Virus record (IMG/VR): IMGVR_UViG_3300024284_000007
Location: 23,380 to 87,379 of that record
Length of the DNA stretch: 64,000 nt
Strand: one strand, 5' to 3'
DNA from: a virus
Taxonomy: Duplodnaviria > Caudoviricetes
In this document: positions 3,239 to 64,000 of the stretch, in pieces
How positions within the stretch are numbered: position 1 is the stretch's first letter
Layout of the letters: every line of letters begins with the position of its first letter
Notes under the pieces: generated by a model
Told to the model about the DNA's origin: nothing
The model's input: only the letters and a program-made list of their open reading frames with translations
Database searches by the model: none
Translations under genes and position numbers: made by a program

Positions 3239-3312
3239 CGCGGAGTAGAGCAGCTTGGCAGCTCGGTGGGCTCATAACCCTCAGGTCGCGGGTTCGAATC
3301 CCGTCTCCGCTA
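3239..3312 (+). tRNA. Initiator tRNA-fMet(CAT)
   Basis: Unpaired C1:U72, GGG/CCC at the anticodon stem end, CTCATAA loop. Confidence 0.9.
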
Positions 3313-3342
3313 CCGGTCCCGACAGGACCCTAAAGAGTCTAT

Positions 3343-3415
3343 TGGCCTCTAGCTTAACTGGCAGAGTCGCTCCCTGTTAAGGAGTTAGGTCCCGGTTCGA
3401 ATCCGGGGGGGTCAG
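3343..3415 (+). tRNA. tRNA-Asn(GTT)
   Basis: GCTCC-CTGTTAA-GGAGT, GTTCGAATC, discriminator G. Confidence 0.85.
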
Positions 3416-3540
3416 CGGGATGCAGGTGCACGCGATAAACTGGCTTACCTGCGCCTGGCAGATCAGCGCCCTACCCAGGGGGTGCCTCAGACGGAGACAG
3501 CGGGTCACGTACGTCCCAGTCCCCGCCGAGCTGATCACGT

Positions 3541-3596
3541 GGTTCTGTAGCTTAGCTGGTCTAAAGCACCGCCCTGTCAAGGCGGAGGTCAACGGG
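3541..3596 (+). pseudogene. Truncated tRNA-Asp(GTC): 5' strand, D arm and anticodon arm only
   Basis: GGTTCTG-TAGCTTAGCTGGTCTAAAGC-CCGCC-CTGTCAA-GGCGG-AGGTC, then no T loop or 3' acceptor strand before HNH2. Confidence 0.7.
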
Positions 3597-54911: not shown

Positions 54912-56543
54912 CTAGATGTCCCCGCGCGAGAAGTCTGCCAGCATCGCGGGGACGTTGCTGTCAAAACCTGCAACATCCAGGCTTCCGGGGTCTGCCGGGT
55001 CCGCGATGCTGCACTGGGTTGCGGTCATGCCAACAACCGCGAGGCGGGCATTGATTCCCGTCGCGTTGCGGTACTGCACCAGAGCCTGGTGCGGGTGGAT
55101 CCGTCCCGCCCAGGTCTCGTTGTCCGTGTAGACCTGGAAGGTATCCACCTCGATCTTGTTCTTCTGCGCCCAGATCATCGGCAGCGAGCAGTCCGTGCCG
55201 CCGAACGGGAGATTCGCGATTACCCGCACGGCATCATCCAGGCGCTGTTTCGGGGAGATCTTCAGTCCCGAGATGCCTTCACCCCTGCCGTTGCCGCTGG
55301 TGAAGCCGGTGATGAGGTAGTTCTCCTCCGTCGCGGCGGTGACCAGGGACAGGGCGGCGGAGATGTCTCTGGGGGACAGTCCCGGAGTTCCGGTGTTCCC
55401 CCACGTCATGGATCCGCTGACGTCGAGAGCCAGCATGGTCCGCTTCCCGCTTGGCGTGACTGCCTTGAACGCCAGGTAGAAGGCGTCATTGAAGGCATCG
55501 ATGACCTGCGGGACCGGGGTCCAGGTGCTGCCACCGTACATGGACTGACCGGCAGCGTAGGTCTTCATCGCGATCAGCAGGCTCACCGGATGGACCCGCG
55601 CACGGATCAGCTTGTCCTGGTCGCGGAGCTGGTCCGTGACCTTCTTCAGGTGCTCCGACATGGGAGCCAGGACCCCGAGCCGGGTCAATGTCGGGAGCTG
55701 GCGGATCAGGGCAGTCATGGGCATCCCCTGGTCAATCAGCGCACGCCAGAAGTCCGCGTGGGTGCGCGCCTCGTCGGGGAACGCCTCCCAGGGAAGTCCC
55801 GGGATGTTCCTGACCAGGTTGACCCATGCCTTCGCGCGGGCGGTTCCCGTGGCGCGTTTCTCGATCTCCCGTGCCTGCTGGTAACCCCTGATCACCTGGG
55901 GCAGGGCAATATCCGTCTCCCGCCCGCAGGCGAAGTCGAAAAGAGCCTTCAGCTGCGGGTCGGAGGTCTTCGGGTGAGCGAGGCGCAGCAGGTCCTTGTG
56001 CGTCCAGCCGTTGCGCTGGCGGTACTTGATCAGCTGGCGCGCCAGCTCCTCCGGGTCCTTATCCAGGTACCAGCCGCTGACCGCCCTGCGCGAACCCCGG
56101 GTCCATCCGCCGAACAGCTCGCGGTATTCCGCCCAGGCGTACAGGTGGGTGCCGATACGAGCCACCTCCGGCAGGATCTCCAGGGCGCGCTTGCGACCGT
56201 CATCATCTCCGAGAACACTGGCGGCGGCAACGGCGTAGAGAGCCGGGTCATTTCGCGGAGCCCTGCCTGCCACGGAGATATCCCGGGCGGCCCCGGCGAG
56301 GGCAGTGGCGTTCTCCCGGGCAACCCTCTTCACGACGTCGGTTGCATCCTTGGTCAGCTTCTTCTCGCCGACGTAGAAGGTGCCCCCGGTGGTGCCGAGA
56401 GTGAGGAAGCGGTAGATCTGCGGGAAGTTCCCGAGCTGGAAAGTCCAGCCCCCAGCGTTGTTTTTCACCTGCCGGGGATCCGCCTGCTCTGACTGGGCAG
56501 TCTTCTTGGTGCCCGTGGAGAGCAGCGGGTCATTGCGTGGCAT
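54912..56543 (-). CDS. rsr: Ro60/Rsr orthologue (TROVE plus vWA)
   Basis: NNAGG, RFLTLGT..GTFY, KYRQRNGWTHKDLLRLAHP, PMTALIRQL, LALDVSGSM, YTDNETW. Confidence 0.95.
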   Translation of the reverse strand: MPRNDPLLSTGTKKTAQSEQADPRQVKNNAGGWTFQLGNFPQIYRFLTLGTTGGTFYVGEKKLTKDATDVVKRVARENATALAGAARDISVAGRAPRNDPALYAVAAASVLGDDDGRKRALEILPEVARIGTHLYAWAEYRELFGGWTRGSRRAVSGWYLDKDPEELARQLIKYRQRNGWTHKDLLRLAHPKTSDPQLKALFDFACGRETDIALPQVIRGYQQAREIEKRATGTARAKAWVNLVRNIPGLPWEAFPDEARTHADFWRALIDQGMPMTALIRQLPTLTRLGVLAPMSEHLKKVTDQLRDQDKLIRARVHPVSLLIAMKTYAAGQSMYGGSTWTPVPQVIDAFNDAFYLAFKAVTPSGKRTMLALDVSGSMTWGNTGTPGLSPRDISAALSLVTAATEENYLITGFTSGNGRGEGISGLKISPKQRLDDAVRVIANLPFGGTDCSLPMIWAQKNKIEVDTFQVYTDNETWAGRIHPHQALVQYRNATGINARLAVVGMTATQCSIADPADPGSLDVAGFDSNVPAMLADFSRGDI

Positions 56544-56612: not shown

Positions 56613-56749
56613 CCGCGCGGATGTGTTCATGGACACCGGGTTTAGTGCTCTGCCATTAAGCTACAGCCTCCACGAAGGGAGGCTGGCGGGAATCGAACCC
56701 GCACCCTCTTCTCCCAGAAAGATAACCGACATCCGTCCGACCCGCGCGG
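56613..56749 (-). ncRNA. Y RNA-like unit 1 (YrlA type with tRNA-like module)
   Basis: Closing stem GCGGGTCGG/CACATCCGC; T arm GCGGG-TTCGATT-CCCGC, looped acceptor CAGCCTCC/GGAGGCTG, D arm TAGCTTAATGGCAGAGC. Confidence 0.85.
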
Positions 56750-56764
56750 ATTCCTCCTGATGGC

Positions 56765-56833
56765 CCTGCAGATGTGTGAATGGGAACCGGGTTGCATCTG
56801 TATGGTGATAACCGATCCCCTCCGACCCGCAGG
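56765..56833 (-). ncRNA. Y RNA-like unit 2 (minimal, 69 nt)
   Basis: Same two closing stems and TTATC motif around a ~16-nt insert. Confidence 0.75.
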
Positions 56834-56840
56834 AGCTTGT

Positions 56841-56978
56841 GATGGCAGATATGTTCTGTGAGAACCGATGTTTAGGCACTCTGCCAATTGAGTTACCCCG
56901 GTTTTACCCGGAGACGGGACTCGAACCCGCAACTTCCCGCTTAAAAGGCGATAACCGATCCTCGTCCGACCCGCCATC
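56841..56978 (-). ncRNA. Y RNA-like unit 3 (YrlA type with an extra Lys-like anticodon hairpin)
   Basis: TCGC-CTTTTAA-GCGG, T arm TTCGAGT, looped acceptor, D arm ACTCAATTGGCAGAGT. Confidence 0.85.
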
Positions 56979-56996
56979 AGGTCTATGTAATTGTGC

Positions 56997-57086
56997 CCAG
57001 CGGATGTGGCAAGTAAAGCACCGTTTTCTGAATCCCAAGGCGAACCCTGGCTGGGACTGATAACCGATGCCCGTCCGACCCGCTGG
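56997..57086 (-). ncRNA. Y RNA-like unit 4 (UUCG hairpin cargo)
   Basis: Conserved closing stems; CCAGGG-TTCG-CCTTGG insert. Confidence 0.75.
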
Positions 57087-57099
57087 TTATGTAGTTCGG

Positions 57100-57211
57100 C
57101 TGACGGATGTGTTGCTGAGACCGGGTGCCTGAGCCATCACAGGCTTTGCCAGGTTTTACCCCGGCAGGTGGATTCGAACCATCGATAACCGATCTTCATC
57201 CGACCCGTCAG
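57100..57211 (-). ncRNA. Y RNA-like unit 5 (YrlA type)
   Basis: T loop TTCGAAT, acceptor hairpin TGCCGGG/CCTGGCA, D-like arm GCCT/AGGC. Confidence 0.8.
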
Positions 57212-59902: not shown

Positions 59903-60043
59903 CCCAGGCAGTAGGCGTGATCCTGCTGATCATCACGATCGTGGGGGTGATCCTGGTCGCAAGCAACATCGACAGCTTCTCCCGCAGGGAGCGAGGTCTC
60001 CCGAAGAAGAAGCGGAAGGGCATCAGGAAGGGGAACGGGGAAC

Positions 60044-60328
60044 ATGAGAAGTGACATCTTCATCAGTCACCAGGCGGGGAGATGCCCGGTCTGCGGAGCC
60101 CCGATCCTGGACTGCGGGTACTCCGATGATCCAGCGCTATGGGAGCATGACTGGTCTCGCAGCGAGGACAGCAGGGCAGCCCTGTTCTACCTCAACCCGG
60201 AGAACCGGCAGAGCGACGGTCCCGCATACAGGAAAGACGGGACGCAGGTGAACCGAGGTGCAGGACCTGCCCAGGGTCCGGAGACAGGTCCTGCGGGGGC
60301 GCTTACATCGCCCAGTGCTTCACCGTGA
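60044..60328 (+). CDS. Hypothetical protein with a CPVC motif
   Basis: GGGGAA RBS. Confidence 0.45.
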   Translation: MRSDIFISHQAGRCPVCGAPILDCGYSDDPALWEHDWSRSEDSRAALFYLNPENRQSDGPAYRKDGTQVNRGAGPAQGPETGPAGALTSPSASP

Positions 60329-61727
60329 TCTCCATCGCGAGCACGAGGCAGCGCCTGCCCTGGTACTTGACGTAGCCCCCGACGACAGGAGCCCTGCTGC
60401 GGGTGACCGTGATGATGTCATCACGGTCCCTGATCTTCACTGTGACCATCATCTTCCTTCTTCCGGGAGAGACCCCCTGCAAGAGGTCTTACCCAGCCCC
60501 TGGGGATTAAACATCCTCGGGGGCTTCCTCATGTCCTTGCAGGAGAGTCAGGGACTGCCTGCGGACCTGGGAGACGCAGTGGTGCCGGTTCCCGAACTTG
60601 CGCAGGACCCCCTCCCTCCAGATGACGTAAGCAACTCCATCAGGGTAGTTCAGCTCCGGCTCCGGGGAACCTCATGCCCGGTGATGACGTACCTGCCGTG
60701 GAGACTGCGGTGATGCGAGCCGTGGTACTCCACGGCAGATCCCACCGGGTAAGGCTCCAGCTTCATCTCTTCCCTTCCGCCAGCCATCCCCTGAGAAGCC
60801 TCTACACGCGGGGATTTTCCTTCCTGAAAATTTTACCAGGAAAAAATACCAGCATGTTCATGCAGCTCAGAAAGCTTCTGAGGAGTTCCGGGATCTTATC
60901 TCAAAAATACGGGAGGGTGCTTGTCGGCACATCCGAACTCCAGTTCGAATATGTCGAATCATCTACCTCTTTACCTGCACGTGCTTTCGGATTTCTGTGG
61001 TGCCTGGATTTTCGAAAGCTTGTGCTAAGCATGATCCTATATGATCACTGGCAGGATCATATATCATCTGGTGATGCATCATATTCCATCTGCTCCAGGA
61101 TCCTGTATGATTCCCTGGAGTACGAGATATGAGATATCATCTGAGGAATCGAGAGACTGTTCGAAATGCACCATAGGCGCTATCTAGGCTACCCCGTTCG
61201 ATGCTTCGCTATTGTTTTCGGATTGTTCCTGTGAAGTGCAACTTTCCATAGCACCGGGGCACCATCACATGGTAGCACACTCGAACAAATTTTCGCAACT
61301 GTTCGATCTAAAGAACCTTCTGACCTGCGCTTCTATTCGAAAACCTGTCTGAAAGTGCCCCTGCATGACCCTGTGCTCCACGCTGTCAGCAGACCCTGGC
61401 CTGATACCTGACTGCCCCCGTTATGGTCTCTCCGTGGCTCTCAGGAGTTTTCAGAGGGTATCCCGCCACTGGTCTCCTCCCCTGGTTTTCGAGAGTCCTT
61501 CCATGCCCCGATACGTCCGCTGCAGACCCCGTTCGGTGCCCCTGCCTGCCCTCCTGCACCGCTTCCCCGCTGGTGCCTGGCACTGAGGGCACCCTTCAGC
61601 CCGTATGCAGTCGCGGATTGTGGGCATGCGCTTATCATACCCTTCCCTATCTCTCCGGTCTGGATTACCTGCTTTACGGGCAAAGAGAAACCCCCGGGGG
61701 TAATCCCCGGGGGTCTGCTCCTGTCTC

Positions 61728-62207
61728 CTACACCAGCACGCGGTACCCGCCCGGCACCCGCAGGACAGTAAGGCGGATGCCGTTCCATTCGTCATCGTGG
61801 TCAGCGGCTCCCAGGATCATCTCGGCGCGGTCCGGGTGGATCCCGTAGGAGGTGACCAGCTTGCCGCAGGCCTCATCACGGGTCAGCGGACGCGGGGTGA
61901 ACACCGCTCCCCGGAAGGTCTCCGGGGAAGTGCTGGCAGCTTCCACGGCAGCGTCCAGGGGAGCGGTCACGGGTACCGCGATCTTCACCCATCGCTCCCC
62001 GTAGCCTGCCACGGTCACCAGGACAGTTTCCGGGTAGGTGGACTCCTTCCCGGAAACCCAGCCGCGAACGCCGCTCATGGCGGGCATCGAACCGCAGGCA
62101 GGCTCATTCCACTCGATGAGCTGACCCGGACGGGGCATCACGGGGACAGTCAGGGTCCAGATGCGGGCGTTGCCGATGCGCTCTGAGGTCATGGTTCCGG
62201 TGATCAC
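61728..62207 (-). CDS. Hypothetical protein
   Basis: GGAG RBS, GTG start, GC3-biased. Confidence 0.65.
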   Translation of the reverse strand: MITGTMTSERIGNARIWTLTVPVMPRPGQLIEWNEPACGSMPAMSGVRGWVSGKESTYPETVLVTVAGYGERWVKIAVPVTAPLDAAVEAASTSPETFRGAVFTPRPLTRDEACGKLVTSYGIHPDRAEMILGAADHDDEWNGIRLTVLRVPGGYRVLV

Positions 62208-62210
62208 GGT

Positions 62211-62420
62211 TCACGCTCCGATCAGGATGAGGGTCACGGCAGTCACGGACAGGACAGCGATGACGGAGACCAGGAACGTGATTCCGGCTCTGGCTCCCTT
62301 CATCCTGGTCATCCCGATGGCAATCGCCAGGATGACCATTGCGATGAGCGCTGTGAGCATTCCGTGTCCTTCCGTCGCTGGAGACTCCAGCGTAACCCCG
62401 CAAGTGCCTGATCTGTGCAC
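62211..62420 (-). CDS. Small 2-TM membrane protein
   Basis: The likely start is the internal MLTALIAMV; two hydrophobic helices. Confidence 0.6.
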   Translation of the reverse strand: MHRSGTCGVTLESPATEGHGMLTALIAMVILAIAIGMTRMKGARAGITFLVSVIAVLSVTAVTLILIGA

Positions 62421-62966
62421 TTTTCAGGTTACAGCTCCATAACAATGCAACTGATTACATTCAGTGAGATCATCGAACTGATTACAGCGTTAACACTGCT
62501 TACGCCGTTCGAGCTTGCGGGACCTGGGGACCTCGGGACACCGTTCTGGCGTAACCAGCTGGCTACTGCCAGTAGCTTCCCTGCATCCCGGCTAGATGAC
62601 TGCCTGGGTACAACTCTCTGACCTGCCCTTTTCGAGCGATTCGAACTGTTAGCAAGACTAACGGAAATGCTTTCGGATTTCTGCGGACGCAAGTTACCCG
62701 TCAGTATGTCAGGACATACCACCTGGGAAAACGTGATGCAGGAGTCTGCGGAAGGCTCGGGATGTGCCCTGTAACCAGCCACGATGCACTGTGAGCCTGC
62801 CTGCCACTCTCAGCGCATCCTGGTATAGGGGTGTTCGAATAACCGCTTACAGGCGCTCTGAGAGCCTCCATTCGAACACCACTCCCCGGTCCCTTCGGTG
62901 CCTTATTCGAAATCCTCCGACGAAACCCTTGTCAAGGGTAATCATGCAACTACTTTCCGATGTTTG

Positions 62967-63076
62967 TGCAGGTCAGAGCACCATGATTTTCCGTTACCAT
63001 TCCGTGATGGAATAACTTGCCTGGTAGCAAATGTGCAGGTCAGAGCTTGATCATTTGCGTTACTGCAGGTCAGAGC
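62967..63076 (+). repeat. Three direct copies of TGCAGGTCAGAGC
   Basis: 62967-62979, 63034-63046, 63064-63076; inverted partial copies at 62616 and 61319. Confidence 0.8.
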
Positions 63077-63344
63077 ATGTAACACGCTGACCAACCATGC
63101 GATAGCGTTTGGCTTGTTCGGAAGCGCGGCAACGAGGACCGCAGGCAGGACAGAGCGGACCAGGGATATCCACCCCTGCCACCATCGCGAGAACCCGCGT
63201 GGGAAGTGGTGACAACTGAACGTCTCGGAGGGCTATGCGCGGGCTGGTCCCGTGACCTCCTGACACGCACTCCCCTAGCGGGCATGCAACGGACCTGACG
63301 TGAGGCGCAAGCCTGCGGAAAATCCATGCTGGCAGTCAAGGACA

Positions 63345-63765
63345 ATGCTGGCGTGAGTCACTGACCACATGCCCGTTAGGTACGGAGTAAAAGGCTAACT
63401 AGCTCACGGTTAAGGCGAATGCCGCACGGGTTTGTCACCAGCATCACAGGATGCCCGGTAAAGCGGTTAAAGGCTGAGGGGAACGCTCCCGGAGCCACGC
63501 ACGATACGTAGACAGAGCATGGGTCGCGTGCCTAAAAATGCATAACGGATCAAGTGGGAGCCCGGTAACCCGGCGTCGCTTCGGCAAGAAAACTCCCAGC
63601 GTGCCCATGGTGAAGACACGTACCTGAGAATCAAGATCCGTTATGCTACAGCGCGTGACTAAGCCCTAGTCACGGCAAGCCGATGGCAAGTGAGTTGAGA
63701 GATCACCTGCCTGACGCACCCTTCAGCTAGCGGGACCGCTTACGGGTCCCGCGCTTTACGCTGAA
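63345..63765 (+). ncRNA. Candidate large pseudoknotted ncRNA
   Basis: No credible ORF; many long stems including a perfect 12-bp GCATAACGGATC/GATCCGTTATGC and crossing pairings. Confidence 0.55.
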
Positions 63766-63814
63766 GACCTCAGAGAGTGAGTGCCCTACCGGGTACCCGG
63801 GGAATCGAGTGAAA

Positions 63815-64000
63815 ATGACTGCTGACACTGAGTTTGATCTCGCCAGCGAATATGACCAGATTCTCAAGGAGCGCAACGACTTCGGTGATGAGCTTGACAA
63901 GCGCGACTACTCCCGTTATGCCATCACGCTAGCGGGCATCGTCGCGGTTCTCATCACGCTGATCATCTGCGCTACCTTCTTCGGTATCGCCTGGATTACG
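63815..64000 (+). CDS. Membrane protein, runs off the window end
   Basis: MTADTEFDLASEYDQ...ITLAGIVAVLITLIICATFFGIAWIT. Confidence 0.65.
   Translation, partial: MTADTEFDLASEYDQILKERNDFGDELDKRDYSRYAITLAGIVAVLITLIICATFFGIAWIT

What the first reader, a model, noticed from the sequence alone, without database searches (positions are those of the whole stretch)
63345..63765. Unannotated large ornate ncRNA candidate with several pseudoknots
Seen in an ORF-free stretch: ATGCTGG/CCAGCAT (63345/63438) stacked on TGAC/GTCA with a 10-nt bulge whose CGTGAG pairs with CTCACG (63403); GCCCGT/ACGGGT; a perfect 12-bp stem 63540-63551/63635-63646; TGGGAG/CTCCCA inside it; CATGGG (63518) and TACGT (63505) outside it pairing with CCCATG (63604) and ACGTA (63618) inside it; and hairpins GTGACTA/TAGTCAC and GCGGGACC/GGTCCCGC. 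This density of crossing helices resembles the large phage-associated RNA classes (ROOL, GOLLD, raiA type), but I cannot assign it. It could also be a long regulatory leader of the membrane-protein gene at 63815.
Basis: partly seen in the sequence, partly recalled or inferred. Interest (0 to 1): 0.7.

Follow-up and report, generated by a model that had tools for sequence, protein, structure and literature searches.

The report
Stem-closed modules in phage operon leader
This stretch is not one large knotted RNA: about half is plain spacer, and the rest is three separate hairpin elements that appear to start a chain of stem-closed segments, each wrapping one small gene or RNA core of a soil phage operon.

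Summary
But short helices (5-7 bp), including both proposed pseudoknots, are as frequent in shuffled sequence. Only three elements stand out:
- a 107-nt domain closed by a perfect 12-bp stem (63540-63646)
- a hairpin at 63651-63676
- a hairpin at 63721-63766

The 5' 195 nt fold no better than shuffles. Rfam gives no match. A close relative (L045) is 94% identical from 63679 onward but not convincingly alignable upstream, so the interval is not one inherited unit.

Adding a contig that continues the window's phage (L046), the 12-bp domain becomes the first of five tandem stem-closed units. The other four have unique 19-27-bp long-range stems. Two enclose small genes; one encloses a conserved non-coding core.

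Two related phages (G003, L028) have the same layout. Their stems show 7 compensatory changes (1.4 expected), G.U pairs tolerated, and A.C depleted. That points to selection on the + strand RNA.

Best reading: a modular structured operon leader, probably cut or stabilised by an RNase III-type enzyme. That function is inferred, and there is no expression data. The 12-bp domain has no alignable homologue. The scan held no look-alike on other DNA.

The parts
63227..63265 (+). 39-nt island. It is the only sequence in this spacer that is alignable with the G003-type relatives, and it lies just upstream of the finding. It can form a GGAGG/CCTCC hairpin. Its role is unknown; a promoter/operator or a 5' hairpin are possibilities.
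   Evidence: 82% identity to G003 210-248, against unalignable flanks. A metagenome scan with its pattern returned only G003-type copies.
63345..63539 (+). Spacer with no detectable structure or conservation.
   Evidence: Fold z -0.9 (63340-63448) and 0.0 (63445-63539). Helices of 5-7 bp are at shuffle frequency. No convincing alignment to L045 or G003.
63540..63646 (+). Unit A: a non-coding domain closed by a perfect 12-bp stem (63540-63551 / 63635-63646), with 83 nt inside. It is the first stem-closed module of the array.
   Evidence: z -3.7 on +, -4.1 on -. The stem is kept in the MFE of the 1.3-kb composite. It is the first of five tandem long inverted repeats. No homologue is available for covariation.
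63651..63676 (+). Local hairpin: 8-bp stem CGTGACTA/TAGTCACG plus 2 outer pairs, loop AGCCC. It lies immediately before the mosaic breakpoint.
   Evidence: z -3.9; the MFE structure makes up 0.91 of the ensemble.
63679..63720 (+). Start of the module shared with relative L045, with 5 substitutions in about 42 nt. It contains an imperfect hairpin, GGCAAGTG/CACCTGCC at 63685-63710, which is a perfect 8 bp in L045.
   Evidence: Pairwise alignments.
63721..63766 (+). Two-tier hairpin: CTTCAGC/GCTGAAG outside and GCGGGACC/GGTCCCGC inside. There is no U-tract. It is identical in L045.
   Evidence: z -4.5. There are no substitutions between 63721 and 63809 against L045. The terminator scan does not call it.
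63771..63791 (+). 5' arm of unit B. This long-range stem (17 bp perfect, 19 of 21 extended) encloses the small membrane-protein gene. Its 3' arm lies past the window end, at composite 64032-64052, which is L046 131-151.
63815..64000 (+). Small membrane-protein gene, cut by the window end. It ends at composite 64006 and is 65 aa in L045.
   Evidence: ORF listing and GC3 periodicity. 93% identical to P0007. Its continuation is seen in L046.

Best explanation
The interval is the last third of a 1.4-kb non-coding spacer that leads into a rightward operon of small genes. It is not one RNA.

It contains about 195 nt of unstructured, unconserved spacer and three independent elements:
- a 107-nt domain closed by a 12-bp stem
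- a hairpin at 63651-63676
- a hairpin at 63721-63766

The 12-bp domain appears to be the first member of a 'beads on a string' array. In that array successive segments of the + strand transcript are each closed by their own long-range duplex. Each segment holds one small ORF or a non-coding core.

Shown:
- the anatomy
- the excess of long stems over shuffles and over the genome background
- selection for + strand pairing of such stems in two related phages

Inferred:
- the whole array is one transcript
- the 19-29-bp duplexes are substrates for host RNase III or a similar double-strand-specific enzyme
- cleavage separates the cistrons and leaves each with paired, nuclease-protected ends, and frees the non-coding cores as small RNAs

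Unit A is assigned to the array by position and form only.
For: 1. Three elements carry all the fold signal.

2. L046 is 100% identical to window 63902-64000 and extends it. The composite holds 5 perfect inverted repeats of >=12 bp within 1.3 kb. Dinucleotide shuffles give 0.03 (0 of 200 reach the observed count), and the rest of the window gives 0.167 per kb.

3. The extended stems are 13/15, 19/21, 27/29, 24/26 and 24/26 bp. From unit B onward the units are separated by only 2-7 nt. All arms are unique in sequence, and all are kept in the MFE.

4. G003 and L028 have the same architecture in the same place, downstream of the shared 39-nt island.

5. Covariation between L028 and G003 (84% identity) over 128 stem pairs:
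- 109 unchanged
- 7 compensatory doubles (1.4 expected, P=0.001)
- 9 G.U (9.3 expected)
- 3 A.C (9.7 expected, P=0.012)
- 0 other breaks (18 expected)
- shifting the register by 1-3 nt drops pairing from 125/128 to 33-56/128
G.U tolerated and A.C depleted points to the + strand RNA.

6. L045 carries a different domain at unit A's position. It is closed by 12 bp with one bulge and one + strand G.U.

7. RNase III is documented to cut long-range intramolecular duplexes spanning up to 505 nt in bacterial mRNAs (PMC11780869).
Against: - There is no transcript or cleavage data.
- Unit A's stem is only 12-13 bp, short for RNase III. Such repeats occur at 0.167 per kb elsewhere in the window.
- Unit A has no alignable homologue, so it has no covariation of its own.
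- Unit A is separated from unit B by 126 nt with two hairpins, whereas units B-E abut.
- The array is seen only by joining the window to another assembly's contig (L046).
- Covariation was measured in the G003/L028 lineage, not in the window's phage. L045 and L046 are nearly identical in units B-E, and the one arm difference is an A.C mismatch.
- No phage RNase III gene was found in G000 or G003, so a host enzyme must be assumed.
- The - strand folds at least as stably.
Confidence: 0.5

Rival explanations
1. One reading: 63345-63765 is one large, ornate, pseudoknotted non-coding RNA comparable to ROOL, GOLLD or raiA.
For: The stretch is non-coding. The whole-interval fold has z -2.8. The phage is rich in RNA genes: 11 tRNAs and YrlA-like modules next to a Ro60 gene.
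Against: No Rfam match at E<=10. Helices of 5-7 bp, including both pseudoknots, are at shuffle frequency. The 5' 195 nt have z -0.9 and 0.0. The MFE structure makes up 0.0001 of the ensemble and differs from the centroid. A 94%-identical relative shows no convincing alignment upstream of 63679. G003 shows no similarity across the interval.
Confidence: 0.04
2. Only unit A (63540-63646) is a gene. It would be a small stand-alone non-coding RNA of about 85-110 nt released from its closing stem, unrelated to the downstream array.
For: Well-defined fold: z -3.7, with the MFE structure making up 0.19 of the ensemble. Non-coding stem-closed units with covarying cores exist in this phage group: unit D / island 3 has three covarying variants.
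Against: No homologue in IMG/VR, in the one metagenome scan available, or in the GTDB genomes. At the same position L045 has a different domain with at most faint similarity. There is no Rfam match.
Confidence: 0.15
3. The inverted repeats act at the DNA level, as cassette or recombination boundaries, invertible segments, cruciforms or origin elements.
For: A mosaic breakpoint lies inside the interval at 63679. Gene content inside the units differs between lineages. The spacer upstream holds repeat clusters typical of protein-binding arrays.
Against: Each unit has unique arms, so there is no shared recombinase site. G.U is tolerated and A.C depleted in the stems, an asymmetry that DNA pairing would not give. 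The breakpoint does not coincide with any long-stem arm.
Confidence: 0.08
4. Nothing specific lies in the interval. It would be decaying intergenic DNA with a chance 12-bp repeat and two ordinary hairpins that end or stabilise upstream transcripts. Only the gene-enclosing stems beyond the interval would be functional.
For: Repeats of >=12 bp occur at 0.167 per kb in the rest of the window. Sequence upstream of 63679 turns over completely between close relatives. Unit A is set apart from units B-E.
Against: Unit A sits directly at the head of a highly non-random array. L045 has its own closed domain at the same place. The 63721-63809 block is invariant against L045, while the flanking 42 nt carry 5 substitutions.
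Confidence: 0.2

Closest known systems
RNase III processing sites of the phage T7 early polycistronic mRNA (from my own knowledge; not checked in a paper here)
   Same: Double-stranded RNA elements punctuate a phage operon of small genes. They are presumed to separate cistrons and leave stable structured ends.
   Different: T7 sites are local intergenic hairpins with a shared form. Here the duplexes are long-range (82-285 nt apart), each encloses a whole cistron or non-coding core, and every one has a unique sequence. Cleavage is untested.
Processing stalks of bacterial rRNA operons, where the flanks of 16S and 23S pair and are cut by RNase III (from my own knowledge)
   Same: The 5' and 3' flanks of a functional unit pair to form a closing duplex. 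Tandem units sit on one precursor.
   Different: The enclosed units here are mostly tiny protein genes, 130-340 nt per unit, in a phage.
Long-range intramolecular RNase III substrates in Bacillus subtilis mRNAs (PMC11780869)
   Same: Duplexes are formed by mRNA segments hundreds of nucleotides apart (up to 505 nt between cuts).
   Different: Those are scattered single cases (73 sites on 45 mRNAs), not a back-to-back array enclosing successive cistrons.
5'-3' UTR pairing of icaR mRNA in Staphylococcus aureus (PMC3868564; title and abstract only)
   Same: Pairing of the two ends of one cistron, tied to control of translation.
   Different: A single host gene. No array and no non-coding units.
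ROOL, GOLLD and raiA large RNAs (Rfam)
   Same: Non-coding, phage-associated context with tRNA genes in the same genome.
   Different: No covariance-model match. No conserved multi-helix core. The interval is not conserved as a unit.

Membership tests
ROOL / GOLLD / raiA and any other Rfam 15 family | Match to the family covariance model | tested here: not met
   Nothing in the interval at gathering score or at E<=10 in 60000-64000.
Large ornate ncRNA (generic) | Architecture conserved across homologues, with compensatory changes | tested here: not met
   L045 is 94% identical from 63679 on but shows no convincing alignment upstream. G003 shares only a 39-nt island outside the interval.
Large ornate ncRNA (generic) | Fold stability and helix density above shuffled controls along its whole length | tested here: not met
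   The signal is confined to three elements, and the 5' 195 nt have z -0.9 and 0.0. Helix counts of 5-7 bp equal the shuffles.
RNase III-type processing duplex | Duplex of about two helical turns (~20 bp or more) | tested here: inconclusive
   Units B-E have 19-27 paired positions, but unit A, the only one inside the interval, has 12-13.
RNase III-type processing duplex | Pairing maintained by selection at the RNA level | tested here: met
   In G003 against L028: 7 compensatory changes (1.4 expected), A.C depleted, G.U at the neutral rate. This was not testable for the window's own units.
RNase III-type processing duplex | Staggered cleavage by RNase III in vivo or in vitro | not testable with these tools
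Intrinsic terminator | G+C-rich hairpin followed by a U-tract | tested here: not met
   No terminator-like site in 60000-64000. The hairpins at 63651-63676 and 63721-63766 lack a T run.
Y RNA / YrlA | Match to RF02553, or a tRNA-like module | tested here: not met
   YrlA-like hits lie only at 56614-56938 and 57097-57211. ARAGORN finds nothing in 60000-64000.
Recombinase-bounded cassettes or invertible segments | A shared repeat consensus at all unit boundaries | tested here: not met
   All stem arms are unique in sequence. The strand-asymmetric G.U tolerance argues for RNA.

The most novel reading that the evidence does not exclude
A group of soil phages writes an operon as a chain of individually stem-closed modules. 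Each tiny gene, and several non-coding cores, is enclosed by its own unique 13-29-bp long-range RNA duplex. The duplexes evolve by compensatory change. The transcript would be cut into end-paired mini-mRNAs and small RNAs. The window's 12-bp domain would be the first such module and would release a new small RNA.
Probability: 0.3. Interest if true: 0.65.

Novelty: new variant of a known kind. Interest (0 to 1): 0.42.

Why it matters
As stated, the finding is mostly negative: there is no new large RNA class here, and the apparent pseudoknots are what any 420-nt sequence of this composition offers.

What the region leads into is more interesting. It is an operon in which successive cistrons and non-coding cores are each enclosed by their own long-range duplex, with statistical evidence for RNA-level, strand-specific selection in related phages.

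If the stems are processing or stabilising sites, this would be a compact way for a phage to set the stability and dosage of many tiny genes from one promoter. It would also be a source of processed small RNAs. It is directly testable by end mapping with and without RNase III.

Tried and rejected
- **Rfam.** Searches at gathering score and at E<=10 gave nothing in the interval.
- **Phage database.** blastn of 62300-64000 gave no match.
- **Flanking proteins as anchors in IMG/VR.** The 159-aa, 62-aa and 139-aa proteins gave no relatives.
- **Terminase-anchored relatives L002-L009.** All of these contigs stop before the region.
- **Homologues of the 159-aa protein.** They sit in unrelated contexts.
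- **Pattern scans.**
  - Island-2 pattern in IMG/VR and metagenomes: only G003-type copies plus random hits.
  - 12-bp stem pattern: none.
  - Hairpin pattern for 63721-63766: none.
  - Island-3 pattern in IMG/VR and GTDB genomes: G003 only, or none.
- **Downstream protein search.** It gave L045 and L046. A third JGI contig of 2542 nt carrying the same genes could not be fetched.
- **Hidden or decayed genes.** No Pfam or PHROGs hit for 9 ORFs in 62429-63900, and GC3 is flat.
- **Residual homology between the window and L045 upstream of 63679.** Local alignment is marginal (9 of 300 shuffles reach the score) and the global alignment is uninformative.
- **Islands 1 and 3 as paralogues.** They do not align convincingly.
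- **CCCGGTAA motif.** It is enriched in the window (6 observed, 1.3 expected) and occurs in the non-coding stretches of L045 and G003, but no common context was found.
- **Sigma-70-like promoters.** None in 60000-64000.
- **Phage-encoded RNase III.** None in G000 or G003.
- **Earlier notes of this scan.** No look-alike on other DNA.

Full report
**Context**

The window is the last 64 kb of an 87,379-nt IMG/VR phage contig, and the finding lies 235 nt from the contig end. The phage has about 60% G+C and carries 11 tRNA genes. It also has a Ro60 gene with YrlA-like modules next to it. Its portal and terminase relatives include phages of Arthrobacter among other hosts.

A GC3 frame plot shows two long non-coding stretches, about 60750-61730 and 62380-63790. 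The finding occupies the last third of the second stretch.

**Observation**

The statistics do not support a dense set of crossing helices. Perfect complementary runs in the 421 nt, against 100 dinucleotide shuffles:
- >=5 bp: 64 observed, 65.4 in shuffles
- >=6 bp: 19 observed, 16.2 in shuffles
- >=7 bp: 7 observed, 4.3 in shuffles
- >=8 bp: 4 observed, 1.1 in shuffles
- the 12-bp stem: 0 of 100 shuffles

The two pseudoknot pairings are a 6-mer and a 5-mer, which is chance level.

The whole interval folds at z -2.8 on the + strand and -2.9 on the - strand. The MFE structure makes up only 0.0001 of the ensemble. Folding it in pieces localises the signal:
- 63340-63448: z -0.9
- 63445-63539: z 0.0
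- 63536-63650: z -3.7
- 63650-63680: z -3.9
- 63718-63770: z -4.5

Rfam gives no match at gathering score or at E<=10. The terminator and promoter scans call nothing. No ORF in the stretch matches Pfam or PHROGs.

**Relatives**

Contigs related through the terminase (57-86% amino-acid identity) all end before this region.

The 135-kb relative G003 is collinear by wrap-around. Contig L028 bridges G003's two ends. G003 shares with the window only 39-nt islands:
- window 61242-61280 with G003 134286-134324
- window 63227-63265 with G003 210-248

Nothing inside the finding aligns to G003.

A search with the partial downstream protein found L045, a 1308-nt ENA contig. L045 is 94% identical to window 63679-64000. 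Upstream of 63679 it has at most faint similarity; 9 of 300 shuffles reach the local alignment score. A mosaic breakpoint therefore lies inside the candidate. The last ~130 nt travel with the downstream gene, and the first ~335 nt do not. This alone argues against one inherited RNA unit.

**What is there**

L046 is a Logan contig that is 100% identical to window 63902-64000 and continues it by 810 nt. In the composite of window plus L046, the 12-bp stem is the first of five tandem stem-closed units:

| Unit | 5' arm / 3' arm | Paired positions | Content |
|---|---|---|---|
| A | 63540-63554 / 63632-63646 | 12 perfect, 13 of 15 extended | non-coding |
| B | 63771-63791 / 64032-64052 | 19 of 21 | small membrane-protein gene |
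| C | 64056-64084 / 64346-64374 | 27 of 29 | 76/88-aa gene |
| D | 64375-64400 / 64500-64525 | 24 of 26 | non-coding, holds a conserved core |
| E | 64529-64554 / 64637-64662 | 24 of 26 | not resolved |

- Units B to E are separated by only 2-7 nt.
- All arms are unique sequences.
- Perfect repeats of >=12 bp within 400 nt number 5 in 1.3 kb. Shuffles give 0.03 (0 of 200 reach the observed count), and window 1-60000 gives 0.167 per kb.
- The MFE of the 1.3-kb composite keeps all five closing stems.
- L045 has units B-E too. Immediately upstream of the shared block it has its own domain, closed by 12 bp with one bulge and one G.U on the + strand.

**Test of the architecture**

G003 and L028 are 84% identical over 3241 aligned positions. 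Both have the same kind of array starting about 670 nt downstream of the shared island, with eight units in L028 carrying 14-21-bp perfect stems. Over 128 comparable stem pairs:

| Class | Observed | Expected* |
|---|---|---|
| Unchanged | 109 | 89.5 |
| Compensatory double change | 7 | 1.4 (P=0.001) |
| G.U on the + strand | 9 | 9.3 |
| A.C | 3 | 9.7 (P=0.012) |
| Other disruption | 0 | 18 |

*Expected under the substitution pattern of the non-stem columns.

- Of the changed pairs, 84% remain paired, against 28% expected.
- Sliding the register by 1-3 nt drops pairing from 125/128 to 33-56/128.
- G.U at the neutral rate with A.C depleted is the signature of pairing in the + strand RNA, which is the strand of the enclosed genes.
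- The non-coding core of unit D (island 3) is a hairpin whose inner stem reads CGC/GCG, CTC/GAG and TGC/GCA in the three lineages.

**Interpretation**

The long-range stems are real RNA structure under selection in this phage group. The window's phage has the same layout at the same genomic position. I did not measure covariation in the window's own lineage, because L045 and L046 are nearly identical across units B-E.

Unit A is assigned to the array by position and form only. Its stem is short, it has no alignable homologue, and it is set 126 nt apart from unit B.

Function is inferred. Duplexes of 19-29 bp are the size class cut by RNase III. Long-range intramolecular duplexes up to 505 nt apart are documented RNase III substrates in Bacillus subtilis (PMC11780869). 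Neither G000 nor G003 encodes an RNase III domain, so a host enzyme would act. No expression data could be obtained.

**Verdict**

The reading as one large ornate pseudoknotted RNA is rejected. The fallback reading, a structured leader, is closer to the truth. The interval itself holds spacer plus three discrete elements. Its interest comes from the modular stem-closed array that it appears to open.

Searches of this scan's earlier notes found no look-alike on other DNA.

Noticed in passing
window 62967-63076 (also 62615-62627 on the - strand, and 63144-63156): The 13-mer TGCAGGTCAGAGC occurs three times exactly within 110 nt, plus two 2-mismatch copies nearby. G003 has GCAGGTCAGA once in its equivalent spacer. 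It looks like a cluster of protein-binding sites (operator or iteron).
   Followed up: partly
window 60944-61336 and 62640-62906; L020 4814-5487 (G003 133813-134486): TTCGAA is strongly enriched in the non-coding stretches: 8 copies in 3.7 kb, against 0.15 per kb elsewhere. In G003 it forms 12 copies in about 700 nt, many spaced 45-52 nt apart. This is a possible binding-site array or origin.
   Followed up: partly
window 61242-61280: A 39-nt island, 90% identical to G003 134286-134324, inside otherwise unalignable non-coding DNA. Function unknown.
   Followed up: no
L046 474-624 (composite 64375-64525); L021 2132-2280; L028 reverse strand 3305-3552: Unit D is a ~150-nt non-coding, stem-closed element just past the window end. 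Its 39-nt core hairpin covaries in three lineages, and its closing stems differ in sequence between lineages. It is a good small-RNA candidate and has no Rfam-type assignment.
   Followed up: partly
window 63679: A mosaic breakpoint with relative L045: 94% identity downstream, at most faint similarity upstream. In both phages it lies directly after a hairpin.
   Followed up: yes
G003 contig ends (L019, L020) and L028, L036, L037: Other assemblies run across the two ends of the 135-kb G003 contig, with about 160 extra nt in L028. G003 is therefore circularly permuted or broken by assembly here, and these are not true genome ends.
   Followed up: partly
window 54912-56543 (-) and 56614-57211 (-): A Ro60/TROVE-vWA-like ORF, recognised by eye and not run against Pfam here. 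It is followed by YrlA-like matches below the Rfam gathering score (E 2e-5 and 7e-5) and an ARAGORN tRNA-Lys(UUU) call at 56905-56982. The closest relative, L002, shows no tblastx match to this block.
   Followed up: partly
window 63454, 63561, 63787 (-); L045 200, 344, 584, 637, 913: CCCGGTA(A) recurs in the non-coding parts of this phage group, 6 observed against 1.3 expected in the window for the 8-mer. Several copies lie inside or beside stem arms. Its meaning is unclear.
   Followed up: partly
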